DNA of 61,657 bases, filler included, from Pirum gemmata (GCA_002812295.1; 13 parts of 13 records of this genome joined end to end with filler, not necessarily neighbours in it), one strand, 5' to 3'. Numbered from the whole stretch's first letter, positions 6,431-55,960 are shown. A program made the numbers and translations. Notes: generated by a model not told the origin, from the letters alone.

Positions 6431-6748
6431 CAACAATAACAATAACAATAACAATAACAATAACAATAACAATAACAAATANGCAACAATAACAACAACA
6501 ATAATAATAACAATAACAATAACAATAACAATAACAAATAACAAATAACAAATAACAAATAACAATAACAATAACAACTTACCTAATTGCCCACATTAAT
6601 AATAATAATAATAACAAGAACAAAACAACAGTAACAATAACAATATTAATAACAATGTCAAATATTTAAATAACAAATAACAATAACAATAACAATAACA
6701 ATAACAATAACAATAACATGTACAATATCAATAATAATAACAACTTAC

Positions 6749-8465
6749 CTAATCGCCCACATTCCATTCAAAGTCTTTGGAAATACACCTGGTTTTTGTT
6801 CTTCAATAAAGTTAGATGAAGTTTCAAAACCTATTAATTAAAAAATAATAAATAATTATTAATTGTAATTATTTTATTTTCAAGTTTTACTTTTGGGGTC
6901 ATTAATTAGGGTTAAGGTTAGGGTTAAGATTAGGGTTAAGTTTAAGGTTAAGGTTGGGATTGTGATTGTGATTAGAGTTAGAGTTAGGGTTAAGGGTAGG
7001 TTAAGCTTAAGGTTGAGATTGGGATTGGGATTAGGGTTGGGGTTAGGGTTGGGGTTAAGGAATAGGGTTAGGAATAAGGTTAGGGTTAGGGTTAGGGTTA
7101 GGAATTAGGGTTAGGAATTAGGGTTAGGGTTAGGAATTAGGGTTAGGAATTAGGGTTAGGAATTAGGGTTAGGAATTAGGGTTAAGAATTGGGGTTAGGA
7201 ATTGGGGTTAGGGTTAGGAATTAGGGTTAGGAATTAGGGTTAGGAATTAGGGTTAAGAATTAGGGCTAGGAAATAGGGTTAGGGTTAGGGTTAGGGTTAG
7301 GGTTAGGGTTAGGGTTAGGGTTAGGGTTAGGGTAGTTTCGAATCCTATTAGAAAATCATAAATATTGAGTAATTGTCATTATTTTATTCTCGATTTTTAT
7401 TTTTGGAGGTGAAATTTGGATATGGCTAATTAGAATTTAGGTTAGGGTTAAGATTAGGGTTAAGATTAGGGTTAAGTTTGGGATTGTGATTGTGATTAAG
7501 TATAGAGTTAGAGTTAGAGTTTGGGTTAGGGTGAGGGTTAGGGTTAGGGCAAAGATTAAGTTAAGGTTAAGGTTAGGGTTTGGATTAGGATTAGGATTAG
7601 GGTTAGGATTAGGGTTAGGGTTAGGGATTAGGGATTAGGGATTAGGGATTAGGGATTAGGGATTAGGGATTAGGGATTAGGGATTAGGGATTAGGGATTA
7701 GGGATTAATTAGGGTTGGGGATTGGGGTTAGAAGTTAGGGTTAGGGTAGTTACGAATCCTATTACAAAATCATAGATAATGATTAAGTGTAATTATTTTA
7801 TTTTCGATTTTTATTTTTGGGGGTGAAAGTTGGATATCGCAAATTAGGGTTAAGGTTAGGTTTAAGGTTACAGTTAAGGTTAAGGTTTTAAGGTTAGGGT
7901 TAAGTTTAGAGTTGGGATTAGGATTAAGATTAGGATTGGGATTAGGATTAGCATTAGGATTAGCATTAGCATTAGCATTAGCATTAGCATTAGCATTGGC
8001 ATTAGCATTAGCATTAGGATTAAGGTTAGGGTTAGGGTTAGGGTTGGGATTAGGATTAGGATTGGGGTTAGGGTTGGGGTTAGGGTTAAGGTTAAGGTTA
8101 GGGTTAGGATTAGGGTTAGGATTAGGGTTAGGGCAAGGGTTAGAACTAGGGTTAGGATTAGGGTTATAATTAGGATTAGGGTTAGGGTTATGGTTATGGT
8201 TATGGTTAGGGTTATGGTTAGGGTTAGGGTTATGGTTAGGGTTATGGTTAGGGTTATGGTTAGGGTTATGGTTAGGGTTATGGTTAGGGTATACCAGTGA
8301 CTCCAAGCATAGCTGCAGCACAGCCGAAAAATATAGAATAAGCAGCAGAATTGGGGTTTGGGTGATGATAAGTGTTGTGTATGTTATTCCAATCAGTTCT
8401 AAATCCAACATAAATCGCTACAATTATCATTATCGTTGAGGTTGTAATATGCAAGAGAAAAATAC
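6749..8465 (-). CDS. APC-superfamily amino-acid permease, two internal exons (8465-8295 and 6830-6749)
   Basis: Splicing intron 8294-6831 (GTATAC...TAATAG, phase 1) gives [40 protein letters not shown], matching the APC TM6-loop motif G-x-E-x-x-x-N-x-x-E-E-x-K-x-P. Second exon ends at a GTAAGT donor. Confidence 0.85.
6905..8290 (+). repeat. Interstitial telomere-like array (TTAGGG with TTAGGAA, TTAGGGA, TTAGCA, TTATGG variants) in three blocks inside the permease intron
   Basis: Directly visible; blocks are separated by related ~95-bp non-telomeric spacers at 7334-7430 and 7748-7845. Confidence 0.95.
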
Positions 8466-8663
8466 CTTTATATAATAATATATACATATACATATGGGTT
8501 AGGGTTAGGGTAATAATAATAATAATAATAATAANNNNNNNNNNNNNNNNNNNNNNNNNNNNNNNNNNNNNNNNNNNNTTAATTAATTAANNNNNNNNNN
8601 NNNNNNNNNNNNNNNNNNNNNNNNNNNNNNNNNNATAATAATAATAATAATTACTATTCCATA

Positions 8664-10862
8664 ATGTGTTATGGAGTTACTGAACAGGGATTGTTTTCCT
8701 GTAACAATGCAAGTTTGCTTGCAAACAAAAAACTAAGAGAACAAGAGCTAAATAGAATTAAAAAAATTAATATAATTACCACCGGTACCCCCAATACCAC
8801 CACCACCACCAATACAACAGATGACGAAGAAGACATCTCGTCTATCTTACCTTCTCAAGAAAATACTCCAACAAACAATAATGACAACGTTAATAAAGGA
8901 CCATGTTGTTGTTCTGATACAAAAACAATTCATATAACAGCGAAAAATGGTACTAGCGAGTACGCTTTAAATCGTTTAAAACACGGTATAACTTCTCATA
9001 CTCAAAACTCACACAACGTCAGCTCAGTGTCTCTAGTAAATAATAGTCTTTATAGCCTTCCTATAGAAATATACAAACTCCAATGTTTAACACGAATCAA
9101 CATTTCTCGCAATGCCTTTTCATTTTTCCCGATTGTTATATGTACTCTTGTTAATATAAAGTCTATCAATATAAGTGATAATTATATTCCGAAAATACCA
9201 AAAGAAATTAAAAACTTAACCAACTTGGAATATTTCCATTGTAATGAAAATCGTATTCAGGAGATACCCGAGAGTTTATGTTGTTGTACAAATCTGAAAG
9301 GCTTGTATATGGGCTCCTTTTCCGGGGGCAATTTATTAAAAACTTTACCAGAGTCCATTCGTAAACTTCAAAATCTTGAAGAATTAGATTGCTCGTACAA
9401 TCGCATTACTCATTTACCTTCTAGTATAGGTGATTTAAAAAGTTTACGAATTCTTAATTTGGAACGAAATGAGATACACCATTTACCTTGTACTGTTGGG
9501 AAACTATCAAATATTGGTACTATTAACGCGCAACATAACCAATTAGTTTCTTTACCCGAATCATTGAGTGCGTGTAGGAATTTGCGAATGCTAAATGTTA
9601 CATTTAATTTGTTGAAGCACATTCCTGGCGAACTTTGTTGGTTAGCTAGTCATGCCATTGTTCTGTTAGGTGGCAATCCCCTTCATAGTAATAGTATTGC
9701 TATCCGTAACCGTAATTTTGAAAGTTTAAATGACCTTCTTAGTGATGCTATTATTGGTGTTGGTATTAATCACCATCATAATAACAATAATATTAGCAAT
9801 GAAAATCATAATAATCATAACAATACTAGTAATAATAACAATAACAATAACAACAATATTGTAAATGGAGAAGATGGGCATTTAATAGCAGTTCGTTTAC
9901 CAGCTGTGGAACGAATAAGGCGCCCTTCCATACATGCTTACAATCAGCAACAAGAATTAGAAGAGCAACAGCAGCTTGAAACTAACCATTATATTGTACA
10001 CAAACTTCTTCGTATTCATGCTAAAAGAGTGAAAACTTTAAGAAAGAAACAGGCAAGACAACAAAAAATACAAGCAAAATTAGAAAAAAAGACTCGTAAA
10101 AGAAAACACATGATGAATAACAATAACGGAGCCTTTAATAACTCGTATAGTGAAATGGAGATGGATGATATCGAGGAAGAGGACTTTGGTATGAATGATG
10201 ATATTTATAATGATGATGATAACGAAGAAGAATTTGACTCTGACGAAGAACAAGAAGAAAATTACGAACAAAAAAATATCATTGAGTCCCCTTATTTCCA
10301 ACATGTTTCTGATATTTTCAATGGATCATTTGAATATACGGTTTTACCAGCGCGGGTGCATACTCACACGAACACGGTGATGGTAGTAGACAACGAAGAC
10401 GATTTTACGTTTTCAGATAGCTTACCCACCCCACCACTTATCCCAATAGCATCGCAACAACAATCATACAGAATTAATGCAATAGAAAAAGGCCAAAAAC
10501 AATGCTTAAACAAAATTCCTTCGTTGCGCGAATTAAGCGGAACTGTAGTATTACGATCATTGGCGACTGCAGCGAAGGATTTTCCCGTTTGTTCAGAGTT
10601 ATGGTGTAAGTTTGCTCAATCGGTTGTTAAAGTTTTAAATGCTGATCAACACAGAGAGTATATACCTGCAGATGTAGTCTCATTCTTAGAAACAGCTAAT
10701 GGCTGTTCTGGATGCAGATTACCTTGTTTCCATGTGTCTTGGAAAAAAGTAAAGACTGAAAGTTTTGGACACCCTAATGTATCTAATCTACATAGATTAT
10801 GCGCGTTTTGTTATTCTAGTATTAGCTCAGTTCAACCACAATCACAACCACAACTGTCGTAA
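8664..10862 (+). CDS. Intronless leucine-rich-repeat protein (about 9-10 LRRs) with Asn/acidic linker and LRRC58-like C-terminal BC-box and Cys-rich motif
   Basis: 732-aa ORF with repeated LxxLxxLxLxxNxLxxLPxxI units, cap LGGNPL, then IPSLRELSGTVV ... LETANGCSGCRLPCF ... RLCAFC. Confidence 0.9.
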   Translation: MCYGVTEQGLFSCNNASLLANKKLREQELNRIKKINIITTGTPNTTTTTNTTDDEEDISSILPSQENTPTNNNDNVNKGPCCCSDTKTIHITAKNGTSEYALNRLKHGITSHTQNSHNVSSVSLVNNSLYSLPIEIYKLQCLTRINISRNAFSFFPIVICTLVNIKSINISDNYIPKIPKEIKNLTNLEYFHCNENRIQEIPESLCCCTNLKGLYMGSFSGGNLLKTLPESIRKLQNLEELDCSYNRITHLPSSIGDLKSLRILNLERNEIHHLPCTVGKLSNIGTINAQHNQLVSLPESLSACRNLRMLNVTFNLLKHIPGELCWLASHAIVLLGGNPLHSNSIAIRNRNFESLNDLLSDAIIGVGINHHHNNNNISNENHNNHNNTSNNNNNNNNNIVNGEDGHLIAVRLPAVERIRRPSIHAYNQQQELEEQQQLETNHYIVHKLLRIHAKRVKTLRKKQARQQKIQAKLEKKTRKRKHMMNNNNGAFNNSYSEMEMDDIEEEDFGMNDDIYNDDDNEEEFDSDEEQEENYEQKNIIESPYFQHVSDIFNGSFEYTVLPARVHTHTNTVMVVDNEDDFTFSDSLPTPPLIPIASQQQSYRINAIEKGQKQCLNKIPSLRELSGTVVLRSLATAAKDFPVCSELWCKFAQSVVKVLNADQHREYIPADVVSFLETANGCSGCRLPCFHVSWKKVKTESFGHPNVSNLHRLCAFCYSSISSVQPQSQPQLS

Positions 10863-12767
10863 TGTAGCTAATTAATTATAAGCTTTATTACGGAAGATTA
10901 TTCAATCAAATTGACAATTATTTTTAAACTAAAAAAATAAAAATGAATTTGAAAACTCACATTTAAAAACTTACGTAAATTAAAACGGGGTTCGGGGTTA
11001 GGGGTTCGGGGTTAGGGGTTCGGGGTTAGGGTCAGGGGTTAGGGTTAGGGTTAGGGAGAAAATATAATTTCTGCGACTGGATCGGGATCTCTGCTATCGT
11101 GATTGGTATCTATCTCCCCTTGTAGTATATATTATTATTTACAGCAAAATGACTCTCTTATTATATATAATCGGATTTACAATAAAATAAATAACTGAAT
11201 AACAATGTCAGGTTTTGTTTGATTAATTTTATAAAAATCAGTCTTTTATAATGTTAGAAATCGTATGACTGGGTCCTCATTTTCTTGATATAGAAAATGA
11301 CACCGGAGAACAATCTCTACAATGTTAATATTAATCCTTTCATTCTGTAAAATCGTATTTAAGTTTTCTTTTAATTAATCTAAGACATGTATACGTACAA
11401 TCTGAAATTGAACATGAGTTAAATTTATTTATACACCCACATTGCTTTAGTACAAATTTCACAATCAAATGAATAAATTTCACTAGTACTTATTCGGGTA
11501 TCTGGACACATAATACATATAAAAGTGATGAACGTTTTTTACGAGGGGTGACACCTATAAGAGTCCTATAAGTAAATGTCCCCTTAAATTGGCACTGATT
11601 CCGCAACCCGCAGCCATTTACGGATTCCCAATTAAGTAAATTATAAATAGTAAAATAATTTAGCTTTTTTGGTATAGTAACTTAAATTACTTTAAATAGT
11701 TTATTTTTTACTATAAGTAGTAAGCCGCAGCCGCAGCGGAAAATGAAACCATTAAGGAATATTAATTTTTTTCACACTACAAACACAAACCATAACGACA
11801 ACATAAACTACCAATACCAACACTATTACAATAATCACAAACGGAATAAATTCAGTCTGATAATTTATTTTTATAATAATAATAATAAACAAACAAGTTT
11901 CCACTACCCCAAAACATTTCATGTTTATGCACATAATAAATCATTAACAATATTTTTATTAATATATTATAATATTAATATAAACTACAAAAATACCCTA
12001 CAGTTTTAGAAAAATAATAGAAAAAAACATATATAATAATATTTTTTTTTTAAAAGAGAAAATTAATTACTATTTTTGATTTATTTCAAGTTATATAATA
12101 TCCAATAATAATAATAATGGAAATGTATTATCCAATAATAATAATAATAGAAAAAAAAAACCCTACAAATTTAGTAAAATCTCAATAAAGATTTATTTTT
12201 AAAAATAATTACTATTTTTTTAAAGATTTTAAACTCCAAATTTAATTAAAATTACCAAAATTATAATTTATTACTTAATTTGGAAAACATATCTACATAT
12301 TTGTAAATATTCCTACAGATGTAAAAAAAAACCCCAATAAAATTTTAAAAAAATTAATAATATATATTTTAGAAAAAACCCTATATTTCTCAATTTAATT
12401 ACTATTTTTATGAAATAAATTACCAAATTTGATTGAAAAAACCAAAATTATATAATTGATTACTTACAGCACGCAGGATCCTCATATATTATATATAATT
12501 AACAATTTTTTTATTTTCATTAGTTTTATAATTATGACACTAAAAAATAATCCTAACCCCACATTTTGAATTTAAAACAAATATTTAAATTCCTCAGATG
12601 TCTTAAGCGGTTTTCTTTGTTATTTTTTAGTCAGTAGTAGTAGTTGTAGTAGTAGAGTAGTAGTATTAGTAGTATTAGTAGTGGTGGTGATAGTAGTAGT
12701 AGCAGTAGTAGTAGTATTAGTAGTAGTAGTAGCAGCAGCAGCGGTAGTTGTAGTAGTAGTAGCTATG

Positions 12768-12800
<33 letters not shown>

Positions 12801-12943
12801 ATANNNNNNNNNNNNNNNNNNNNNNNNNNNNNNNNNNNNNNNNNNNNTTAATTAATTAANNNNNNNNNNNNNNNNNNNNNNNNNNNNNNNNNNNNNNNNN
12901 NNNTATTATTGTATTATTGTATTATTGTATTATTGTTAGAACC

Positions 12944-15900
12944 ATGAATAAATTGAGGTGGTCTATTGTTTGCACAGCCTTGGCTTTTGCAGTGTGTGCT
13001 TGTGGAATCGTGACAGCAATCACTAAGAATGGTAAATAGTAATACCTATAACAATAACTATAACAATAAAAATAACTATATATTAATAACAATAACAATA
13101 ACTATAAATAACAATAACTATAAATAACAATAAAAATAACTATAAATAACAATAACTATAAACAAATAACAAATAACAAAATTTAATAACAAATAACAAA
13201 TAACAAATAACAAATAACAAGATTTTAATAACAAATAACAAAATTTAATAACATATAATAAATAACAAAATTTAATAGTAACAAATAATAACAAATAATA
13301 ACAAATAATAACAAATAATAACAAATATATATAACAAATAATAGATAACAAATAACAAATAACAAATAACATATAACATATAACATATTATAACATATAA
13401 CATAATATAACATATTATAACAAATAACAAAATTTAATAACAAATAACAAATAACAAATAACAAATAACAAATAACAAATAACAAATAACAAATAACAAA
13501 TAACAAATTACAAATTACAAATAACAAATAACAAAATTTAATAACAAATAACAAATAACAAATAACTTTAATAACAAATAAATAACAAAATTAATAACAA
13601 ATAATGAATAACAAAATTTATTAATTAACAAATAACAAATAACAAATAACAAAATTAATAACAAATAACAAATAACCAAATAACAAATAACAAATAACCA
13701 AATAACAAATAACAAATAACAAATATTTAACATTTAATAACAAAAATTTAAAAAATGACAAATATTTAACAAAATTTAATAACAAATATATTAATTTTAA
13801 CAAATAACAAAATTTAATACTAAACAAATTTAAATAATAAATAACAAATAACAACAAATAACAAAATTTAATAACAAATAACAAATAATAAATAACTAAT
13901 ATTTAACAAATAACAAATATTTAACAAATAACAAATATTTAACAAATAACAAATATTTAACAAAAAACAAATATTTGTTAAACAGCAATTAAAAATTAAA
14001 AATTAAAAAATAACAAATAACAAATAACAAATAACAAATAACAAATAACAAAATTTAATAACAAATAGCAAATAACAAAATTAATAGCAAATAACAAATA
14101 ACAAATAACAAATAACAAAATTTAATAGCAAATAACAAATAGCAAATAACAAATAGCAAATAGCAAATAGCAAATAACAAATAGCAAATAGCAAATAACA
14201 AATAGCAAATAACAAATAATAACAAATAACATAATTATAATAATAACAAATAACAAAATTAATAGCAAATAACAAATAACATATTATAATAATAACAAAT
14301 AATAAATAGTAAATAACAATAAATAACAAATAACAAATAACAAATAACAAATAATAAAAAATAAAAAATAGAAGAAATAATAAATAACAAATAGCAAATA
14401 TTAACATTTAATAACACATAGCAAATAACAAATAACAAATATTAACAAATAACAAATAACAAATAACAAATTAATAACAAATAACAAAATTAATAACAAA
14501 TAACAAATAACAAATAACAAATAACAAATAACAAAATTTAATAATAAATAACAAATAACAAATAACAACTATATATAACAAATAACAAATAACAAATAAC
14601 AAATAACAAATAACAAATAACAAATAACAAATAACAAATAACAAATAACAAATAACAAATAACTTTAATAACAAATAACAAATAACAAAATTATAACAAA
14701 TAAACAAATAACAAATAACAAACAAAAGGAACGGAAATGTTTGTTGGAATTTACCTGCTTATTGTTGGATGCTATGGGTTGATAATGGAATTCCCATTTC
14801 ATAAAAAGCAAATAGCTTCGAAGATTAGCTTGGTACACAATCAAGCGCGAGGTAAACCAAAATGTGTTGATGCTTACTATTATAATTATTATGTTACTAC
14901 TACTACCAATTCTTCTACTATTATTACTGTAATTATTTATATATTGCTAATACTACATTAATGAATACTATTACTGTTAATACTTTCAAAAATACCCTGA
15001 AATCATGCTTACTTACTTCATTTTATATATTATACTAAAACAGGTCTTGTTTATTTTGTATTGTGGATTCCTGCAGTAATAGTCATTGAAATGACAACAA
15101 TTCTGGTCATATGTAAGTCTAAAACACTAACCCTAATCCACACCCTAATCCCTAATTACTGTTACAATTACTATTATTATTACTATTACTATTACTATTA
15201 CTATTTCTATTACTATTACTATTACTATTACTATTACTATTACTATTACTATTACTATTTTACTATTACTATTACCATTACTATTACTATTACTATTAAT
15301 TACTATTGCTATTACCATATTCTTACCATTACTATTATATATAATATTATTTGATATTGATTATAGGTATTTTGTCAGTTCTAGGATTGGGTTATGTTGT
15401 ATTGCCATGCTTTAAATCCAAAGACGATTCCCCTAAGTCAGTTTCTTTTTATTTTTGTATTAATGTAATTATCATATCATATCATATTATTAATAATAGT
15501 ATTATTATTAGTATTAGTATTAGTATTGGTATTAGTATTAGTATTAGTATTAATTGTGTACTTTCAGGTAAATTTTTATATTTAATATTTATAATGCGTA
15601 TACTTTCATTCACAGGTCATCAAAAGCATCGTTCATGTTTTTAACATTATTATGTGTTTTAGCTTATTGTGGCTCTTGCATCTTTTTGATTATTTATAGT
15701 TTTGTTAACAGTGATAATTGTAAGTATTAATTTCACCTAACCCCAACCTAACCCCACTCTAACCTAACCCCAACTATAACCTAACCCCAACTCTAACCTT
15801 ACCCCAACTCTAACCTAACCCCAAAACTGACCCCAACCTTAACACAACCTTAACACAACCTTAACCCCAACCCCAAACCCTTGATCCTAACCCCAATCCC

Positions 15901-16353
15901 AACCCCGACCTTGGTTCTCATCCCAATCCCAACCCCAACCCCAACCCCAACCTTGATTGTAATCCCAATCCCAACCCCAACCTTGATTCTAATCCCAATC
16001 CCAACCCCAACCTTGATTCTAATCCCGATCCCAACCCCAACCTTGATTCTAATCCCAACCCCAACCCCGACCTTGACCCAGCTTTGATCCTTACCCCAAT
16101 CCTAACCTAACCCTAACCCTAAGTATAATATTATCATAGCTAATGATTTAATTATCATTTTGCGTAAATAGATAAGATTAAAGGTTGGCAATATGGTGAA
16201 CAAATAAATAAAACAATATATATTTGTTGTGCGCTCCTAGTAGTTAAAGTTCTAGTTTCTATTGTGAAATGTAAGTTACATATATATGTATAATATATAG
16301 TGGAAATAGTTATGGTAATACTAACAATAAATAATAATAATAACATGATCATC

Positions 16354-16411
<58 letters not shown>

Positions 16412-16692
16412 TAGTAGGTTACGAAAAATCAAGAAGTCAAGACACAACTCATTATTGTGTGTACAGTATCTATTATGACCTAATGCTACTGGTATTAGGC
16501 AGTGGTTTTACGCTTTTCGTGGTCGGATTACCAGGATGTATTTTAATAGTTGTAAACCAAATTTACAATTTTGCTGTCGCTGTGCTTATGCTCTTGTTCT
16601 TTTTCCTTTTCAATTGTGTACGTGATTCTCCGGTAACTGCAAATTCACATTTAAGCGTAAACGAAAATGTACCGCTTATAAATAAACCATAA
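12944..16692 (+). CDS. p22phox (cytochrome b-245 alpha)/NoxD-like membrane protein with extended hydrophobic C-terminus; exons 12944-13031, 14729-14851, 15044-15112, 15367-15436, 15616-15719, 16418-16692 (242 aa)
   Basis: All five introns are GT-AG and phase-compatible. Product MNKLRWSIVCTALAFAVCACGIVTAITKNGTEMFVGIYLLIVGCYGLIMEFPFHKK...HNQARGLVYFVLWIPAVIVIEMTTILVICILSVLGLGYVVL parallels recalled p22phox (MGQIEW; FGAYSIVAGVFVCLLEYP; NYYVRAVLHLLLSVPA; ATILG). Gene structure is more certain than the family call. Confidence 0.75.
13040..14727 (+). repeat. ~1.7-kb degenerate (AAATAAC)n satellite filling intron 1 of the p22phox-like gene
   Basis: Directly visible; source of the spurious LLFVICY-repeat ORFs on the minus strand. 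Confidence 0.95.
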
Positions 16693-17080
16693 TTCAACAG
16701 GCTAATCGGTTACCACCAAATACGCTTTTCGTAACCAGACTATCCGGAATGCTTCTTAACAGTCGTAAACCAGATTTACAATTTTGCTGCCGCTTTGTTT
16801 ATGCTATTGTTTTTTTTTTTGTTTTTTGATGTAATAGTAATAATAATAATAATANNNNNNNNNNNNNNNNNNNNNNNNNNNNNNNNNNNNNNNNNNNNNN
16901 NNNNNNNNNNNNNNNNNNNNNNNTATTGTATTGTATTGTATTGTATTGTATTGTAATATATTATATATTAATATTATATATTATATTATATAATATTGGT
17001 TTATGTATTATTATTGTTATTATATTATAGTACTATTATTATGATATTAAATTTTATTGAATTAACCAAATACAAGCTCT

Positions 17081-17967
17081 CTATTCTTCAGGAAATAAAT
17101 CAGTAATGCTGTTAATTACAAGTCTGTTCATGTAATTCGTTAAACCAAAACAAACTTGAACAACTATATCATAATAATTTAACAAAGGTATTGGTACTTC
17201 ATCAGTCATGATTTTGAATACCTTTGCTTTTCGAATTACTCTTTCTACGTGGATCCTTGTTGATGCCACTTCTTTGGTCACTAACTTTTCGTCTTGTGAA
17301 AACTGTTGATCTTTTTTTAGAAAAGCAGGTAAATCAACTTGATTCTCTAAACCAAGATTAGCGCCATTTGTAAACCCCTTGTCTGCCATAACACGAGGCC
17401 ATAGTTTTTCAAATATACAAGTGCATTCAGCTGTTTGGACTTTGGCGGTGTGATGATTATTGTAATATGAAAAAAGCATTCTTTGTAATGCTTCTGTGGC
17501 ATCGATTATTAAGGCCGTGTGCTTGTATAGAGGGTGTTGCTTGATGCAAGGGAGCATATGTTCTTCTATCCATTCCTTTTTTAGTTTATTTAACATAGTC
17601 AAGTCTTCATGCATGATAAATGTGTGCGTAAGCCTGTTTGAAAATACCGTGATGCTGTTTGACTTGAAATATTGAATAAGTATTAATAACCTAAGTGGTA
17701 AAAATAAAAATTTTGCTTCAATTTCATGAATGTCAATAACATACCGTCTTCAAAATCTAGTTTCTTTCTTTCCTTTTTTTCTACGTGTCATTGCTCTTTT
17801 AAATCTACTAGTACTTTTACAAGTAGTTCCACGATACTACATGGTGTCCATATACCTTTTGTAAACCTCCTTATTTCAGTTGTTTTCTCTCGCACACGAC
17901 AGACATTCGGTAATCTTTTACCCTTAGCGTTGCTTTCATTACAATTTACATGTAAACAACCCCCCAT
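17081..17967 (-). mobile_element. Decayed ISL2EU/Harbinger-group DNA transposase (THAP-like + HTH_Tnp_4 + DDE_Tnp_4)
   Basis: ATG at 17967 gives MGGCLHVNCNESNAKGKRL...WTP (THAP-like start), then KLDFEDGMLLTFMKLKQN...FNISSQTASRYF (HTH) with in-frame stops, then LIIDATE, YYNNHHTAK, VMADKGF, LPAFL, ASTRIHVERVI. Spacing implies internal deletions. Confidence 0.85.
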
Positions 17968-20138
17968 TTTGGTTTTGTTATTTTGTTATTAATTTTTTAT
18001 TTATTTATTTATTTATTTATTTACTTCTATTAAATTTATTTATTTATTTATTCATTTATTTATTTATTTATTATCGTTATTATTATATACTTTATTACTT
18101 TTATTATTATTATTATTGTTTGATTTTGTTATTTTGTTATTAAATTTTTATTTATTTATTTATTTATTTACTTCTATTAATTAAATTTATTTATTTATTT
18201 ATTTATTTATTTANNNNNNNNNNNNNNNNNNNNNNNNNNNNNNNNNNNNNNNNNNNNTTAATTAATTAANNNNNNNNNNNNNNNNNNNNNNNNNNNNNNN
18301 NNNNNNNNNNNNNAGGTGTCGAATTAACTAATTAAAACTAATAAACTTATCTTTTTTTACAAAAAAGGAAATTTATTATATAATGTATGAAATATCAGTA
18401 CGAAATATGATAAAACTTTACCGCCTCTTCGTTAAAAAAGTACCAACGTTATTACTATCATCGATAAGTTCATTTTTTTGTTAGGCTAGTCTAGCTAGTC
18501 AGGGTCAGGGTTAGGGAGTTTTAGAGGGTTAGGGCTTGCTAGGTAGTTATTGCTAGGTCTAGGTAAGTTTTATAGTTGGATTTTTTTTTAACTACCAAAC
18601 CGGATAAAAATTGCCATATGAGCTCAAAAATCAAAAAAATCTCAAAATGATCCAATTTTCAAACAAAATACTACCAAATTTTGAGAAATGGTCTAACTAA
18701 TTAAACCCTATTATGAACCAATGCCCAGTTTTGAAGAATAATTTGGTTATCGTAGGTAGAAAAAAAAATTTTTTCTAGTTTTATCCGGCTTGGTTGTTAA
18801 AAAAAAATAAAAATTTAAAAAAAAAAAATTAGTTGGGTGGTTTTAAAAGCCATGCACACCATGTTTATTTTCTAATCGTATCACAGTAAAAAAAATTTTA
18901 AAAAAAAAAAAAACGAATTATTAACATTGCATTTATTTTTCTCGTAGTACCGTTGTGCCATTGGCTGGTCATATACATTACACAATTGCTATTAACATAT
19001 CAATAGTTGGTGTCAGTTACCATTATCAGCTCTTATTTATTAACATCCAACTTTCTCAGTTATTGCAAATTGAAACACAAATAAGTAAACTACAAATACC
19101 AGTAGTTAGTTATTTTTTTTCAACCAGAAATGCGGGAAAACCCATCGAATCGAAGACTAGAATTTCGAAACTTTTCGATCTAATTGACTCACCAAAAAAA
19201 TTCTTTACAATTTCATAGAAAAAAGTTGAAACTCGAAAAAAAAAGAATATCATTTCAAAATTGTCACTATTTAATGATTACGATCGATCATGTTTTGTGC
19301 TAGTATAATAACTACTTCTACGTCTAATATTACTTGTCCACATACTTTACTACTATAAAAACTACTACTCTATAACAACTACAACTACTATGATACTTGA
19401 TTCTAAATTTACCAGTAACATTTTTTTAGAACGTCAAATTTTTGATGGAAAATTTTTCTTTCTATTTTTTTTTTTTTTTTTTTTTTTTTTTCCTGCACTT
19501 TACCCCGCTCATCTCCTACTCCTGCACTATTATCACTACCCATGCGTTTTTTTTTTTAAAAAACCCGAAAATTTTGTTTTCGAAAATACAGACTAGTTTT
19601 TCTACAGCTAACTCCACAAGTTCTGCTGCTTTGAAAAACAGTACCAGACTTTTAATTTTAAATTTGTTAATCAATTCGGCACTCGAAAGTTAGTAAAAGA
19701 AAAAGGAAAAAAATAAATATTACCAATTTTTCTAATTTTTTATTAGTTTTTGTATTTTTTCACAATTAAGCTTATTAAAATACTTTTGTAATATTTTGAT
19801 ATTTAGTTATTAGGAAGTGCAATATTTTATTAACGCGCACATCACTTAATTCGTGCCCACCGTATTGTAACCAGAATAAATTGTTTGGGTCCATTAGTCC
19901 ATTAGTGTCCATTCATAATAATATATAATAATATTAGCCATAATAGACACTTTTTAATTCCTTTAATTAATTGTACCCCAAAATTGTCAATGGTCGAAAT
20001 GGAATTGTCAAATGGTAATTAAATTTTGTATAATATATTTTGAATGCATTTTAATTAATTAACGATTTTTATTTTACTTTTTTAATCAAATAAAAATTTT
20101 ATTCCTATTCATAATAAAAATTTAATTTATTGAAATAA

Positions 20139-21179
20139 TTAATAAACCATCGTTTCAATAGATTGAATCATACCAGATTGAATAAACTCTCCATAACATT
20201 CCATGGATTCTGTTTTAAATTTAAGAGCACCATTCATATTTTTCTGAAACAAAATATACGAAACATCCTGACTTGCTACCTTGATTGATTTCACATTCAT
20301 TTGACCAACTAGTTGTAATAATTTTTCGGTGGGGTAACGTCCAGCAGTCAATTCTATTTTACTTCCTTTAAAATAACAATCACTATATAAAGTCAAAGCA
20401 GGTAAGTTTTTGGCATTTTCGACAATAGTAGCGGCGGTTGCCTCTGCTTCAGCAATAAGCAAAGCAGCTTCAATTTCGGCAGATTTAATGATTTCTTCCG
20501 CATCAGCGGATGCAATGTCATCTTTTTTAATAGTATCTTCTATAGGTGTACTAGGAGCCTTGTCTAAAGCGGCAAACCCAGGACCTTCTCCGATTAGTGC
20601 CACTTTGTTTTCGTAATATTGTGCATCTTTGTTATCACCGTTGGCGTTATTAATCCCGATGGTTAACCAATAGAACTCTAAAGTACAACCATCACTACCA
20701 CAATCTTCGGGTAAAGTTGGTAATGGTATATCAGATTCACAATTACTGTGACCACAAAACTTTCTTACACAATCATCTTCATGAAAGATTTTTTTACTTT
20801 GTCCTTGTTTATTAACAACGTAAAAAGCACAAGGACCTTGATGATCGATAATCCAGCTGTTAAAATGTGCTTTACGTGGGGCCCTTTGTGGACTATTATT
20901 AGTGCGGTCATTGAGGGCACCTCTGTTGATAGCTTTGTAAGTATACAATTCTTTTAAATCTGTATTACCGAAATCTCTTTTAAATGCATTCATGTCGGTA
21001 TTAGGGTAGCTGCCGTAATAATCTCTCAAGCCAGGGTTCACATATCTCAATGACTCGACAAAAAGCGGATCTCTGGCATGACCGGGTCCATTTAGATTAG
21101 GTACAGTAAGTACACCATGACCGTGTGTAGAAGATATAGCCAAAGATAAAGTAAGTACTAAAGTATTTATGGCAAACAT
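20139..21179 (-). CDS. Secreted lytic polysaccharide monooxygenase, AA17-like, with helical linker and C-terminal beta/gamma-crystallin-like domain
   Basis: Intronless 346 aa. Signal peptide ending STHG exposes His1 (HGVLTVP). DHQGPCAFY, IFHEDDC, C-x4-CTLEFYWL and Q-Y-Y match the recalled AA17 pattern HxGPC...F..DDC...C.F.FYWLA...QxY. LTLYSDCYFKGSKIELTAGRY...VKSIKV matches microbial beta/gamma-crystallin Greek-key motifs. Confidence 0.85.
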   Translation of the reverse strand: MFAINTLVLTLSLAISSTHGHGVLTVPNLNGPGHARDPLFVESLRYVNPGLRDYYGSYPNTDMNAFKRDFGNTDLKELYTYKAINRGALNDRTNNSPQRAPRKAHFNSWIIDHQGPCAFYVVNKQGQSKKIFHEDDCVRKFCGHSNCESDIPLPTLPEDCGSDGCTLEFYWLTIGINNANGDNKDAQYYENKVALIGEGPGFAALDKAPSTPIEDTIKKDDIASADAEEIIKSAEIEAALLIAEAEATAATIVENAKNLPALTLYSDCYFKGSKIELTAGRYPTEKLLQLVGQMNVKSIKVASQDVSYILFQKNMNGALKFKTESMECYGEFIQSGMIQSIETMVY

Positions 21180-22039
21180 TTTTAGGTTGGTTGTAGTTGT
21201 TTCTATTTTTTAATTTTTATTTTCAGTTTCTTTGTTTGTTTAAAAAAATTAATAATACAATTATAATTTTTTTTTTTGGTCTGTTTTTTGGTTTGAAATT
21301 TTTAATTTTATTTGCTTTTTTTTATTAGAAGTCTATTTATAGTTTGTTTTGTTCAGTTACAAAATATTTTTCAATTGTTTTTTGCCCGTTTTTTGTATTT
21401 TTTATTAGTTAGTTGATANTTTTTTTTTTTTTTTTTTTTTTTGGTCTGTTTTTTGGTTTGAAATTTTTCATTTTGTTTGCTTTTTTTCATTAGAGGTCTA
21501 TTTATAGTTTTTTTTGTTCAGTTACAAAATATTTTTCAAAATTTATTGTTTTTTTTGTTAGTTGAAATAATATTATCATTATAACTACTAGAATATAAAT
21601 TATTATATTCCAAATCCGGATTTGGTTGTAAGATTATTTAAGCTTTATTTACCAATTAAAATACAGTTGTTCTTTTAAAAAAAGGAGTTTACAAATAATT
21701 ACAAATCCTTTTTTTTTTTTTTTTTTAAGGGGGGAAGCTAAATTAGGGGGGGGGTTTCTTGTGTGGTTGTTTGGTTAGCTAAGTTTGGTTAGTCGGTTTA
21801 ATAAATTAGCTATAATAAATAGCTAATAATAAATAGCTAGTTATGAAGATAACTTCTATCATAGGTTGAATTGTGAGCTTTTCACCTAGGAATTTTTGAT
21901 TGGACTAGAATAAAAAAGTAATGAAAGTGAAATGACGTCATTCCCTCTTGATCGTAAACTTTTTTAAAAAAAAGAAAATAATCAATTTTAAAATGCAATA
22001 ATTCTGTATTCATAAAGTATTCATAATTAAAATCTACAG

Positions 22040-22935
22040 CATTGTCTTCAAAAACCACTGATAATTTCTTTGTTCATTTTATCTTTTATTTTTGTTAAAC
22101 AAACAAACAAATAAAGTAGCAAAAAAAGAAACAAAGAAACAAAGAAACAAAGAAACAAAGAAACAAAGAAACAAAGAAACAAAGAACGAAACGAAACAAA
22201 CAAGCGGTTTTCAAAAACCACTGATAATTCCTTTGTTTATTTTATCTTTTATTTTTGTTAAGCAAACAAACAAAGAAAGTAGCAAAAAAAGAAACAAACA
22301 AAGAAACAAACAAAGAAACAAAGAAACAAAGCAACAAAGAAACAAAGCAACAAAGAACGAAACGAACAAATAAGCAAACAAATAAACAAACATGCAAAAT
22401 AAATAAACAAGTAAAATATTATATATATTCCAGTTAAATTAGCAGCTCCAGAAATATCGAGGAAAATTAGACATCTCGTATTCTTAATTAATAGAAATTA
22501 ATATAAAACAAAGGAAGTAACAAAAAAAGAAACAAAGAAAGAATATTTAGTTGGTTATATAAACATATTGTTTTCAAAAACCACTGATAATTCCTTTGCT
22601 TATTTTATCTTTTATTTTTGTTAAACAAACAAACAAAGAAAGTAGCAAAAAAAGAAACAAAGAAAGAAAGAAACAAACAAACAAAGAAACAAAGAACGAA
22701 ACGAAACAAACAACCAAACAAATAAACACACATGTAAAATAAATAAACAAGTAAATTATTATATTATATTTTCCAGTTAAATTAGCAGCTCCTGAAATAT
22801 CGAGGAAAATTAGACATCTCGTATTCTTAATTAATAGAAATTAATATAAATATAAGTTAAATTAGCAGCTCCAGAAATATCGAGGAAAATTAGACATCTC
22901 GTATTCTTAATTAATAGAAATTAATATAAATATAA
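22040..22935 (+). repeat. Local tandem duplication (~525-bp period) with a ~76-bp unit present three times
   Basis: TTCAAAAACCACTGATAATT begins near 22047, 22210 and 22573; AGTTAAATTAGCAGCTCCwGAAATATCGAGGAAAATTAGACATCTCG begins near 22431, 22775 and 22855. Confidence 0.9.
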
Positions 22936-50700: not shown

Positions 50701-51423
50701 CTATCTACTAGCTAGCTTTCAATCTTTAATTTGGTATTTTTTAAGTTTATAATTGATGTTGTTTATAAAATGAAATATTATATAAAACTTACCAAATTAA
50801 TTAAAACATGCCCGATAGTTTAACCATAATAATAATTTGGTATGTTTTATTTCAGTTTTTGAACTAGAGAGAGAGAGTCTATGATTTCCTAGCTAGTCTA
50901 GTAGACTAGCTAGCTAGGCGCCATCTCAAAAAAAAAAAAAAAAAAAAAACTAGTCTAGACCCTCTCGTAGTCTAATAATAATAATAAAAAGACAGAATTT
51001 GAAAAGTATGACGTCATTAATCAGGAAAATAGTTAGTTAGGTCTGTTAGGGTTTTTGAAAAAGGAGTACCGTGTTAGTAGTTGGTGTTAGGGTTAGGGTT
51101 AGTAGGGTTAGTCTATGATTAGTCTAGGGTTAGGGTTAGGGTCAGGGTTAGGGTTAGGGTCAGGGGTTAGGGTCAGGGTTAGGGTTAGGGTTAGGGTAAC
51201 AGTCATAATATTTTTAATATATAGTGCTTTTCAGTTATTTTGTCGTCATAAAAATTTAATATACAATAAATAGTACCATATTAATACAATATAAATCCAC
51301 TTAGTTTAATTAGGTATATTTTATTATTTATTTATTGATTTAAAAATGTCAATTTAAAGATTATAACCCTCCAAATAAATATTCCGAGTGAAAAAATAAA
51401 TGAAAAGCACGATAACAACAATA

Positions 51424-52911
51424 ATATAGCAGCTGCAGGTACATAACAACTAACAATAATACTAACTGCTACCAAAACAAAACCAACAATAAGTAACTGT
51501 AATTTTTTCAAAGAAAACAAATTTGAATACTTTTTTTTAAATTAATTAATTGAACAACAAGAACATGTAATATAACATCCATATCAATGGCAGCAACAAT
51601 GTTAAAATTAACAAAATTTATTAGACTGCCAATACTTCAAGAAAACAACAAACAAAATAAAAAACAGTATATGTTTATAAACAATTATAATAGAAAGTAA
51701 CTAAAACTATATATAACAGCAAATTTAACACTAAACAAACAAACAACAAACAACAAACAAAAAACAAACAAACAAACAAACAAACAAACAAACAAACAAA
51801 CAAACAAACAAACAAACAAACAAACAAACAACAAACAACAAGCAAACAACAGCAACAGCAACGAACACGCAAGAGCAACAAACAACAAACAACAAACAAC
51901 AAACAACAAATAACAAACAACAAACAACAAACAACAATTCTCATGATTGACTGCAAAAACGAAGTTTCGAATATTAAAATTCGATACTGAAAGCTGCATA
52001 ATAAAGTATAATATTGTGCTTTTCATTTATTTTGTCACTCCGAATATTTATTTGGTTGGTTATAATATTTAAGCTGACATCTTTAAATGAATAAATANAT
52101 TATTACTTATTATTATTATTATTATTATTTATCATTATCATTATTATATTATATAATAATACCTGTAGTACTGCCAGGATATGAGTAGGAAAGACGGGTG
52201 AACTAGAAAAAAAAATTGTATACAACGCCATAATAAATTTGACTGGCAAAAATGTAAAACAATACAAAAGCCCATCTAGAAACGAAAGAACTCCCATCCA
52301 AATAAATAATTCCATTTTTATAGGTGCACGAATAACTTGGAGCAATTTCCAAGGAGGTTCCATGTATAGAACCTAGCATCATTGTTGAGCAACTATGTTA
52401 GCCAGGTATTTTTACTAACCCTAACCCTAACCCTAACCCTACCCCTAACCCTAACCCTAACCCTAACCCTGTATTATGCCTATTTATTATTATTATCATT
52501 ATTTAAACTTTTATCTACATGCTTTATATAGAAAGCAGTGTAGGAAGGTAAAACTGAAATTAAAGAATATCTATTATTGTATTATTACAAATATTATTTT
52601 GTATATATTATGATGTTATTGATAAAGTTAAAAAATTAATAACTAACAATAAAGTTAAAAATTACAAGACGGTGATAAAGACAAATTTCATCAGGTAAGT
52701 GAATTAAATGCTGTTGACGATTGACACTTTATTATAAGGACTAATTATATTTTGAAAATTAAAAATAATAAATAATGTTATCATCGTAACTAAATTAATC
52801 TTTATATACCTGAGGTAACTCTTCACTCCATTCCCAACTTAGCTTGGGATTAGCGTTATCTAAAATTGAGAAACTATCTTTTTTTTTTATATTGCCTGTA
52901 GCTGGTGACAT
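51424..52911 (-). CDS. TAPT1: TAPT1/EMP65-family membrane protein, 5' part: exons 52911-52810, 52372-52163, 51496-~51424; remainder not found
   Basis: APIKMELFIWMGVLSFLDGLLYCFTFLPVKFIMAL matches recalled TAPT1 PRELEKLMVFGIFLCLDAFLYVFTLLPLRVFLAL. Phase-0 GT-AG introns; GCTAAC branch-site candidate before the 52372 acceptor. Confidence 0.8.
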
Positions 52912-53277: not shown

Positions 53278-55960
53278 ATGTCTTCTACAAGTTTACTGCT
53301 TTCTGCTACAAAAAATGTACCAAGCCAAACCTTACTTAAAAGCTTTAATCAGTTAAAATGCTTGTCTCGAAAATATTTCAAAGCTGTGTTGAGAAACATA
53401 TTTGAGTTCTTCTCTCTCGGTGATGTAAGTTGTTACTATACTAAACCGTCTGTATATTATGTTAATTTAATATTGTATTGGTCACTATTCTTTTTATTTT
53501 ATTAGTCAAATTCAACAAATAAATTGTAAATATTAATAATGTTAATAGTATTAATTATGATGATGATTATGATGGTTGAGTGGCTGGTTGGTTAGGTGGT
53601 TGGTCGACTGGTTGGTTGGTTGGCTAAAAAGATTAAATTAAGATAAAGGCATGAAAATAGGGAATATGAATTGAAAAAGGGTATAATAAGTATAAAAACT
53701 AAAGACCTTCAAAATTGTTTAATGTAGAAAGACACATTCAACGAAAATTTGAAATTGATCATTTCAGACTCAAGTGGTGAAATTGAGTCTGACGCGCTCG
53801 AAAAACTTTGCTCTGGAGTTATGTCTTATTTCATGGCAGCGTTTAAGCACTTCTTGGTAACTTCCGAAATAGAGTCTGACTTAAAACGACTAGGTATGTC
53901 CTATGAATCATTTCATATTTTTGCCTTGTGTATTTTTTTTATTGCCTGTTTTTATATAATGCTGTTATTACGGTTGTCGAAATCGTTGGTTCAGTTTGTT
54001 TATGAATATGATTATGGATATGTATGATAATTACTTCTATCACACATATAACCGAGTCCTTATGGCCATTGGTATGTACTCTTATGCTTTTATGGTTACG
54101 GTTATGGGAATATTTCCATCTTCATGTTGGTTTTGTTATTGTCTAGTAGCTGTTTTCGTTTCGTTTGTTAAAATACTCGATTTTTTTTTTTTTGTTGGCT
54201 TTATTATTCGGAATTTACCACCACTTTCTAACATCATTGTAACATTTTTTTACATAGGACTGAAAGATGATCAAATTAAGGATATCAGTGTCTTTGTGAG
54301 TTTATTATTAATTAGTGTTGAAGAAAAATGTTTTATATTGTTCCTTGTATCATTGCTGTGTTGTCTATTTTGCAATTTCTTTTTTAGTATTAGCATTATC
54401 ATTGTAGTTACAATCAACAAGTTTTATTTTTATTTATAATTGCACTTGATTCATTTGTTTTGGTTAGTATTCTGTTATAAATAGAGTTGTTGTTACTTAA
54501 TACATTCTGAATCATTGGAAATTCGATTGATATCTTCATTCTTTTTTAATATTTTTAATATTTTTATTCTTCCTCATTTTTTTTGAAACAATACAGCTAG
54601 AGAGTGATCAATTGAAATTAAAAAGTTGCACACAAATTTCCAATTTAGATGTTAACAAATTGGTTGATTTGGATTGGAAATTTGGGAGTAAGTATATTTA
54701 TTGCTTATTTTCTTTTCTAAGAGTTTTTATGATTTTCATTATTCCTGTTATTGCTGTTGCTTTTACGGCAATTGTTGTGTCTGTTGTTTTTATTACTGAT
54801 TCTGTTACTAATATTGTTACCAATGTGGGTTACTGGTGTGGTTACTGATTATGGTTACTGGTTATGGTTACTGGCATTGTGGTTGCTAGTGTGGTTACTG
54901 GTTTGGTACTGTGTGTCGTTACCGGGGTTTACTACGTGGTGGTGGTGGTTATGTTGTTATTATGTTGTTATGTTGTTGTTATGTTGTTATGTTGTTGTTA
55001 TGTTGTTGTTATGTTGTTGTTATGTTGTTGTTATGTTGTTGTTATGTTGTTGTTGTGTTGTTGTTATGTTGTTGTTATGTTGTTGTTATGTTGTTGTTAT
55101 GTTGTTGTTATTGTTATGTTATTGCTATGTTATTGTTATGTTATTGTTTTGTTATTGTTCTTGTTCTTGTTCTTGTTCTTGTTCTTGTTCTTGTTCTTGT
55201 TCTTGTTCTTGTTCTTGTTGTTAATCAATGTATTTATAATTTTATTATTTTATTGTTATTATTACTGTTCTTATTATTGATAATTTTGTTTCTGTTAGTT
55301 CCGAAAGACTTTCTTTTTAAAAATTTCATCTTTTTATGTAAGTTATTCTACTTAACTTCTTGAACTAAATTTAAAACCCCAATCCTCCATTTCTACATAT
55401 TGATAATAATCTCGTGAATTTTTAGTTTTAAATTTCATTTTTGTTCATTTTTATTCTTGTTTTTCTTATTTTTAACTTTCAAGTTACAACTGGAACAAGC
55501 GAAAAGCGTACTTCAGACCAAACATTTATTCAACTCAAGTTGCGAATAGACAGAGGCAATAATAGAATTGAACCAGAACATTTTGGTAAATCTGATTTTT
55601 TACATACTTTAATAAAAGATACTTCATTGCTTCCTTTTTTTGTTTTAGTTTTTTTGTTACATTACACTATTAATCTTTCGTTTTTCATAATTATTTCTTA
55701 AACAAAACCAAAAAAAAATGTGTTAAAATGGAAAAGTATACAATATTCAATATTCAATGAAGATCATATTTTTATCCAGCAAGTTTTACTAACCTTTAAT
55801 ATTTTTAGAATCATCTCTTACGATAATTTTATTCTTTCTTTTATGGTTATCCAATAAGTTTTACTAACTTTTCATATTTATAGAATTAACTCTACGACAA
55901 TTTTATTCTTTCCTGCATGAAATGGAGAGGGTGCAGTCTACTTTACAAAGTCATTATTGA
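53278..55960 (+). CDS. COMMD7: COMM domain-containing protein 7; exons 53278-53424, 53728-53893, 54258-54295, 54597-54687, 55484-55585, 55884-55960
   Basis: Phase-compatible GT-AG introns; product includes NKLVDLDWKFGITTGTSE...FIQLKLRIDRG...ELTLRQFYSFLHEMERV, close to the recalled COMMD7 COMM domain (WKFGVT; ELTLPQFYSFLHEMERV). TACTAAC precedes the last acceptor. Confidence 0.93.

What the first reader, a model, noticed from the sequence alone, without database searches (positions are those of the whole stretch)
6831..52470. Intronic telomeric arrays read CCCTAA on the sense strand in 7 of 8 cases
Seen: C-rich on the transcript strand in both permease introns (6905-8290, 8496-8511; minus-strand gene), p22phox-like introns 3 and 5 (15126-15155, 15735-16122), oxidase introns 1 and 3 (35744-35920, 37180-37345) and after the 38495 candidate exon; the exception is TAPT1 intron 1 (52415-52470). 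Inference: sense UUAGGG would add a UAG|G decoy acceptor every 6 nt and G-quadruplex potential, whereas CCCUAA has no AG and tiles CUAAC, the branch-site core seen in other introns here (TACTAAC, GCTAAC). Selection, biased insertion or co-option as branch sites are all possible. Sample is small and non-independent.
Basis: partly seen in the sequence, partly recalled or inferred. Interest (0 to 1): 0.72.

Follow-up and report, generated by a model that had tools for sequence, protein, structure and literature searches.

The report
Telomere repeats building a new intron
Telomere-type repeats lie in several predicted introns of this AT-rich eukaryote, mostly C-rich on the coding strand but too few to prove a bias, and one predicted intron holds only such repeats plus a copy of the next exon's start, so it likely arose when a repaired DNA break became spliceable.

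Summary
The eight arrays exist with the stated polarity, and four of the five gene models give open spliced frames. But 7 of 8 is only 4 of 5 genes (two-sided p=0.38; p=0.07 by array), and 9 of 17 arrays in the window were not counted. No genome or RNA was available, so the bias is unproven here. AG-rich repeats are tolerated in introns, which weakens the decoy idea.

The stronger result is oxidase intron 1 (35722-35929): a 28-nt copy of the next exon's start (25 of 28 identical, spanning AG|GT) plus a CCCTAA array ending 16 nt before the acceptor. It is likely a new intron made by telomere-repeat insertion with target-site duplication, with its branch site inside the array.

GC-rich marine algal contigs show the same build: 19 of 63 arrays have flanking duplications (null 3 of 3812), and 19 of 22 arrays in Pfam-oriented genes end C-rich. 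A naive donor-anchored count there ran the other way (55 G, 31 C). The scan noted this intron type before on other DNA (e1-7377132, e1-9720091); ten paper searches found no description.

The parts
35722..35929 (+). Oxidase intron 1 (208 nt, GTCAGT...CAG): duplicated exon start plus telomere-type array; candidate newly born intron
   Evidence: Open spliced frame; of 84 donor/acceptor pairs 20 stay open and this is the one that restores a single copy exactly; no RNA
35720..35746 (+). 5' copy of the duplication: last 2 exon bases plus first 25 intron bases; its last 3 bases are in register with the repeat
   Evidence: 25 of 28 columns identical to 35928-35955
35928..35955 (+). 3' copy of the duplication: acceptor AG plus start of exon 2
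   Evidence: 16 nt exact in register; 4 or fewer in the other 17 introns
35744..35920 (+). CCCTAA array (12 exact units) ending 16 nt before the acceptor; holds every branch-site candidate of the intron
34550..37409 (+). Multicopper oxidase gene, 4 exons (34550-35721, 35930-36556, 37159-37171, 37374-37409)
   Evidence: PF07732, PF07731; spliced frame; homologs
37172..37373 (+). Oxidase intron 3 (202 nt), almost all CCCTAA array (21 units, from 11 nt after the donor to 28 nt before the acceptor); no flanking duplication
6831..8294 (-). Permease intron (1464 nt): 77 units C-rich on sense, starting 5 nt after the donor; contains two internal copies (about 90-100 nt) of its own 3' splice site plus exon start, each joined to the array at the exon's CTAAC
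8496..8511 (-). Two-unit array in the truncated upstream permease intron, ending 33 nt before the acceptor at 8466
15113..15366 (+). Intron 3 of the 7-exon membrane-protein gene; 3 units near the donor, 211 nt from the acceptor
15720..16171 (+). Intron 5 of the same gene; decayed C-rich array ending 49 nt before the acceptor
52373..52809 (-). TAPT1 intron 1, the exception: 7 units G-rich on sense ending 46 nt before the acceptor, upstream of a GCTAAC site at -26
38596..39176 (.). CCCTAA array (+ strand) running into a gap, after an unsupported candidate exon; cannot be oriented

Best explanation
The arrays are interstitial telomere-type repeats that were likely inserted at repaired DNA breaks, and one of them, flanked by a 28-nt duplication of coding sequence that spans an AG|GT site, is predicted to have created oxidase intron 1. 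Shown: the duplication, the array between the copies, and an open frame once 35722-35929 is removed. Inferred steps: (1) a staggered break in the exon; (2) TTAGGG repeats added to the antisense strand, likely by telomerase; (3) rejoining at a 3-nt match upstream and fill-in, which duplicates the target; (4) the two AG|GT copies give donor and acceptor, and the C-rich sense strand supplies CUAAC branch sites with no AG before the acceptor, so the insert is spliced out and survives. The C-rich excess would then be a survival filter acting on insertions in exons and near 3' splice sites, and be weak deeper in introns, which fits the TAPT1 exception. Later slippage and local duplication likely expanded the arrays, as in the permease intron.
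For: Duplication 25 of 28 nt; 16 nt exact in register against 4 or fewer in the other 17 introns and at most 9 in 306 mismatched donor/acceptor pairs. The intron holds nothing but the copy and the array, and exon 1 reads in frame into the first copy. All branch candidates within 60 nt are in the array. Telomeric insertion with direct target duplication is documented in horse, 3 of 66 loci (PMC7215372, passages); duplicated AGGT gives splice sites (PMC3443670, passages). Same build elsewhere: in 39 GC-rich marine loci (40 less one duplicate) 19 of 63 arrays, in 10 of 33 loci, have flanking direct repeats scoring 12 or more, against 3 of 3812 null pairs. In 11 loci whose strand was fixed by Pfam the sense strand has 135 CCCTAA against 36 TTAGGG, 10 of 11 loci C-rich (p=0.012), and 19 of 22 arrays end C-rich. 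CAGG follows 13 of 45 C-rich arrays within 16 nt, against CTGG 3 of 45 and 4 of 48 for G-rich arrays. Removing such inserts restores conserved reading in IleRS, PIF1 (Walker A), PGK and light-harvesting genes.
Against: No RNA shows splicing: run X2 spans intron 2 of the 7-exon gene unspliced and so behaves as DNA. No empty ortholog, telomerase gene or chromosome end could be examined. Only 1 of the 7 array introns has a duplication across both splice sites. Duplications of splice-site segments also occur here with no telomere repeat (55776-55850 against 55851-55920; the permease donor copy near 6582). The intronic copy reads LQPG, closer to the PG of 5 of 8 homologs than the exon copy LPSG, which needs two amino-acid changes in the kept copy; 19 other donor/acceptor pairs are also in frame. 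The shared 3 nt lie at the rejoining side, not at the end telomerase would prime. The donor-anchored marine count ran against the bias: 55 G, 31 C, 24 other of 110, and 35 G against 19 C among interstitial cases. The CAGG signal is absent in low-GC loci (0 of 41). The marine loci were picked by a motif, may come from few species and say nothing direct about this organism.
Confidence: 0.6

Rival explanations
1. The orientation is chance. CCCTAA/TTAGGG is just one of many microsatellites that fill introns in this genome, and 7 of 8 reflects four or five genes.
For: By gene 4/5, two-sided p=0.375. 195 tandem-repeat rows in 62 kb. G/C skew of non-array introns goes both ways, -0.78 to +0.51 among complete ones. 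9 of 17 arrays are unoriented, and 57512 could be a second exception if it lies in the Got1/Sft2 gene across a gap.
Against: Does not explain the 28-nt duplication around oxidase intron 1, nor the strong 3' C-rich polarity in Pfam-oriented marine loci.
Confidence: 0.3
2. Oxidase intron 1 arose by plain tandem duplication (template switching or microhomology-mediated repair). The array was copied from another interstitial array or grew by slippage from the exon's own CTA bases, with no telomerase involved.
For: Splice-site duplications without telomere repeats exist in the window. Arrays are very common in this genome: 779 contigs of run X1 lay on a 2-kb stretch, mostly on its repeats, so templates abound. 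The permease intron shows duplications joined to an existing array at a CTAAC match.
Against: A bare 27-nt duplication is probably too short to splice (inference from general knowledge), so array and duplication likely came together. Insert plus direct repeat is the documented short-ITS signature (PMC7215372).
Confidence: 0.3
3. One reading: genome-wide selection against sense UUAGGG anywhere in introns, because of decoy UAG|G acceptors or G-quadruplexes.
For: 6 of 7 modelled arrays are C-rich; no G-rich array lies between a branch-like site and an acceptor in the window.
Against: TAPT1 intron 1 and two TTAG-rich introns tolerate many AGs. In marine loci G-rich blocks are common in the 5' part of introns (5 G-then-C and 3 all-G of 22).
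Confidence: 0.15
4. The duplication is an assembly artefact at a repeat.
For: The scaffold is fragmented with gaps at repeats.
Against: The two copies differ at 3 of 28 columns, no N lies within 1.4 kb, and the same build recurs in independent assemblies.
Confidence: 0.05

Closest known systems
Short interstitial telomeric sequences inserted during double-strand-break repair (PMC7215372, passages; PMC2246262, search listing only)
   Same: [quoted passage not shown]
   Different: In human none lay in exons and 31% in introns, consistent with random insertion; the authors leave the effect on splicing open. Here the insert appears to have landed in an exon and become the intron.
Intron gain by tandem duplication of AGGT and by double-strand-break repair (PMC3443670, passages)
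   Same: Duplicated AG|GT gives donor and acceptor; direct repeats flank the new intron.
   Different: The filler is a telomere-type array that also offers the branch site; the word stem 'telomer' occurs 0 times in that review's main text.
Introner transposons (recalled; mentioned in 10.64898/2026.07.09.736142, passages)
   Same: Insertion with a target duplication that supplies splice sites; potentially recurrent.
   Different: No element body or terminal inverted repeats; duplication length varies (about 10-30 nt in the marine loci).
Pervasive interstitial telomeric tracts in the haptophyte Calcidiscus leptoporus (PMC13518057, passages) and telomere-like repeats in Eimeria and Plasmodium knowlesi (10.1101/2021.12.01.470736, passages)
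   Same: Genomes littered with internal telomere-type repeats.
   Different: The passages seen give no strand bias, no link to splice sites and no intron origin.
(AC)m-(GT)n structured introns of fish (PMC4691745, passages)
   Same: Simple repeats with a fixed polarity next to splice sites that affect splicing.
   Different: They need complementary repeats at both ends; window introns carry one polarity only. Some marine introns (G then C) could fold back.

Membership tests
Short interstitial telomeric insertion | Tandem telomere-type hexamers at an internal site | tested here: met
   oxidase array is 1.4 kb and 2.5 kb from the nearest gaps
Short interstitial telomeric insertion | [quoted passage not shown] | tested here: met
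   oxidase intron 1 only, 25 of 28 nt; not in the other six array introns
Short interstitial telomeric insertion | Bases in register with the repeat at the primed 3' end | tested here: inconclusive
   3 shared bases lie at the rejoining junction; the other junction is decayed
Short interstitial telomeric insertion | Empty orthologous site in a relative or allele | not testable with these tools
   no genome held; nearest oxidase homologs 27-39% identical
Short interstitial telomeric insertion | Organism has TTAGGG telomeres and telomerase | not testable with these tools
   no genome; TTAGGG is widespread and likely ancestral in several groups (PMC3622300, passages)
Intron gain by AGGT tandem duplication | Duplicated exonic AG|GT gives donor and acceptor with the frame kept | tested here: met
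Intron gain by AGGT tandem duplication | Intron consists only of the duplicated segment | tested here: not met
   about 180 of 208 nt are repeat array
Intron gain by AGGT tandem duplication | Removal seen in RNA | not testable with these tools
   no RNA run of this organism was served
Introner transposon | Shared element body with terminal inverted repeats | tested here: not met
   by reading the sequence: intron is copy plus single-polarity array; no dedicated inverted-repeat search was run
Fold-back repeat intron, fish type | Complementary repeats at the two intron ends | tested here: not met
   each window intron has one polarity only

The most novel reading that the evidence does not exclude
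Telomere-repeat healing of breaks inside exons is a recurrent, transposon-free intron factory in unrelated microbial eukaryotes: the target duplication supplies the splice sites, the C-rich strand supplies the branch point, and so only one polarity survives at 3' splice sites. This AT-rich organism shows one such birth, and GC-rich marine algae, probably haptophytes, show it many times per gene.
Probability: 0.45. Interest if true: 0.82.

Novelty: new variant of a known kind. Interest (0 to 1): 0.6.

Why it matters
Most recent intron gains have no identified source (PMC3443670, passages). A filler that the cell makes itself, that needs no mobile element and that already carries a branch-site motif on one strand would be a simple general route to new introns. 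It gives sharp tests: polarity should depend on distance to the acceptor, duplications should flank young cases, and empty alleles should exist. It would also answer the open question in PMC7215372 of whether intronic telomeric repeats affect splicing. The 7-of-8 count alone is of little weight.

Tried and rejected
Genome-wide orientation test: no assembly is held.

RNA check: one run search and two layings. On the oxidase stretch X1 and X2 gave one short contig each and X5 and X8 none. On 14725-16760 X2 crossed an intron unspliced and no intron-removing joint appeared. Small-share marine runs were not used as evidence.

Lineage: two homolog searches gave distant hits only and two Atlas searches nothing usable, so the lineage is not established.

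p22phox label: no hit in Pfam, the Atlas or PDB. The COMMD model gave no open frame, and the Got1/Sft2 intron bounds are approximate, so 6 of the 18 background introns are provisional. The mismatched-pair control had a local-score maximum of 64, above the real case (39); I read this as physically overlapping windows around tiny exons but did not check it, so only the in-register exact count is used. The first duplication count was inflated by repeat-to-repeat matches and was redone with masking.

The donor-anchored metagenome count is not a clean test: about 16 loci by eye belong to one repeat family, and GTAAGT often is a decayed G-repeat. True telomere ends were rejected for 23233 and 38599 (wrong polarity for a right end); 57512 could be one.

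Ten paper searches found no description of telomere-repeat intron birth or of intronic strand bias. Most subscription journals are not covered. No supplements were read; Fig. S5 and Table S2 of PMC13518057 may bear on the haptophyte side.

Full report
Setting. The window is 27% GC and a gapped scaffold: 18 N-gaps, most with a stop-codon spacer, and 5 single-N joins. Tandem Repeats Finder gives 195 rows; introns and spacers are full of simple repeats. No genome is held. The lineage is not established: homolog searches gave only distant hits. An earlier scan note calls the genome a probable single-celled relative of animals (e1-9893649); I could not test that.

The observation. The eight arrays are present with the stated polarity. 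Spliced models built from coordinates are open for the permease (minus), the 7-exon membrane gene (plus, 275 aa), the multicopper oxidase (plus) and TAPT1 (minus). Pfam supports the oxidase strongly and the permease weakly but collinearly. 4 of 10 scanned homologs of TAPT1 exon 2 carry PF05346. The p22phox label and the 38495 exon are unsupported. 7 of 8 gives two-sided p=0.070, 6 of 7 gives 0.125, and 4 of 5 genes gives 0.375. Nine further clusters of 17 cannot be oriented. No RNA was available: X2 behaves as DNA and the RNA run X5 laid nothing. In X1, 779 contigs lay on a 2-kb stretch, mostly on its repeats, so such arrays are common genome-wide; the tool warns that summed depth is not a copy number.

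Array ends lie 16, 28, 33, 46 (the exception), 49, 75 and 211 nt from the acceptor. Branch-site use is forced in oxidase intron 1 if the intron is spliced, plausible in two more, and unnecessary in the rest. Only 3 of 11 non-array introns have a CTRAY motif 8-60 nt from the acceptor, so the consensus is loose here. AG-bearing repeats are tolerated on the sense strand, and the TAPT1 array sits upstream of its own branch-like site. This fits AG exclusion only between branch point and acceptor (established knowledge, recalled), not a general ban.

What is really there. Oxidase intron 1 (35722-35929) begins with a copy of the start of exon 2. The two copies, each starting with AG|GT, match at 25 of 28 columns: 16 nt exact in register, against 4 or fewer in the other 17 introns and at most 9 in 306 mismatched pairs (6 of those introns are provisional). 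Between the copies there is only the array. Exon 1 reads in frame into the first copy, so the simplest history is an uninterrupted exon that received an insert with a target duplication. Of 84 donor/acceptor pairs 20 keep the frame open; only 35722/35930 restores exactly one copy, with the same donor hexamer as intron 4 of the 7-exon gene. The intronic copy has the PG found in 5 of 8 homologs and the exon copy does not. One of the two changes removes a CAG 16 nt past the acceptor, which may have been selected, but this is a guess and the mismatch also leaves the exact junction open. The permease intron shows a related scar: two internal copies of its 3' splice site plus exon start, each joined to the array at the exon's CTAAC. 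Similar splice-site duplications occur without telomere repeats at 55776-55920 and near 6582, which is the main rival.

Evidence from elsewhere. One metagenome scan for a donor motif near an array of either polarity returned 110 loci of about 730. It is confounded by one repeat family and by the motif being a decayed G-repeat. In the 40 loci of 55% GC or more, C-rich arrays are followed by CAGG in 13 of 45 cases, against 3 of 45 for a control word and 4 of 48 for G-rich arrays; in low-GC loci 0 of 41. After masking repeats and dropping one duplicate locus, 19 of 63 arrays in 10 of 33 loci have flanking direct repeats, against 3 of 3812 null pairs. I scanned 262 of 358 open frames against Pfam; 12 loci hit, 11 after dropping the duplicate, one of them weakly. 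On their sense strands CCCTAA outnumbers TTAGGG 135 to 36, in 10 of 11 loci. Of 22 blocks, 14 are C throughout, 5 run G then C, 3 are G and none runs C then G. Removing the inserts restores conserved reading in IleRS, PIF1, PGK and a light-harvesting protein (for two inserts, in L030 and L095, the top-scoring site pair was not the best reading). The first named hit of the light-harvesting gene is assigned to Phaeocystis at 57% identity, with diatom and Prymnesium hits close behind, so 'haptophyte' is likely, not shown. These loci were chosen by a motif, may represent few species and have no RNA.

Mechanism. Shown: arrays, polarity, duplication, open frames. Inferred: staggered break, addition of TTAGGG repeats to the antisense strand, rejoining at a 3-nt match, and survival because the duplicate gives splice sites and the C-rich strand gives CUAAC without AG. 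Telomerase is the likely source by analogy with mammalian short-ITS, but copying from existing arrays is not excluded.

Known and new. Telomeric insertion with target duplication is known (3 of 66 horse loci; none in human exons; PMC7215372, passages). Intron gain by duplicated AGGT or break repair is known (PMC3443670, passages). Pervasive internal telomeric tracts are reported in a haptophyte (PMC13518057, passages) and apicomplexans (10.1101/2021.12.01.470736, passages). Passages of PMC3022908, PMC11347835, PMC12480563, PMC5560861, PMC3622300, PMC4691745 and 10.64898/2026.07.09.736142 did not describe the combination, nor did the listings of ten searches. The scan itself noted the same intron type twice on other DNA; I saw those notes after forming this reading, and they are not independent support.

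Verdict. The strand count is real but not significant in this window. The window holds one well-formed candidate of an intron born from a telomere-repeat insertion, and other marine eukaryotes show the same build with a strong C-rich 3' polarity. New variant of a known kind; interest 0.6.

Noticed in passing
L002, L017, L022, L027, L030, L031, L036, L044, L047, L060, L086, L095: GC-rich marine algal genes with several telomere-array inserts each, many flanked by 10-30 nt exon duplications and ending in CAG; some run G-rich then C-rich and could fold back. One splits the Walker A motif of a PIF1 helicase, two interrupt a piggyBac-like transposase.
   Followed up: partly
P0010-P0013: Database proteins end in Pro-Asn repeats from reading through such arrays; P0013 has an array with a duplicated peptide at a place where L019 is uninterrupted, hinting at presence/absence between close relatives.
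   Followed up: no
window 55776-55920: Tandem copy of branch site, acceptor and exon start in the COMM-domain-like gene, with no telomere repeat.
   Followed up: partly
window 6560-6600 and 6720-6765: Copy of the permease exon end plus donor, separated by TTGTTA-type repeats.
   Followed up: partly
window 25200-25400: Possible exons on either strand around the 25269 array; on the plus strand the array would abut an acceptor-like site, on the minus strand it would be a second exception.
   Followed up: no
window 38283-38377: Seven-base variant of the repeat (plant-type unit) next to hexamer arrays.
   Followed up: no
window 20142-21179 (minus): Intronless 346-aa secreted-looking protein with an N-terminal His motif recalled as resembling lytic polysaccharide monooxygenases; no such Pfam hit.
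   Followed up: no
window 37159-37171: 13-nt micro-exon inside the last copper-binding motif of the oxidase.
   Followed up: partly
window 44775-47484 (minus) and 17084-17749 (minus): Decayed copia-like retrotransposon (recognised by eye) and a DDE transposase remnant (PF13359).
   Followed up: no
window 15561-15748 and 16421-16760: Runs X1 and X2 hold diverged second copies of parts of the 7-exon gene, and exon 7 is followed by a local duplication.
   Followed up: no
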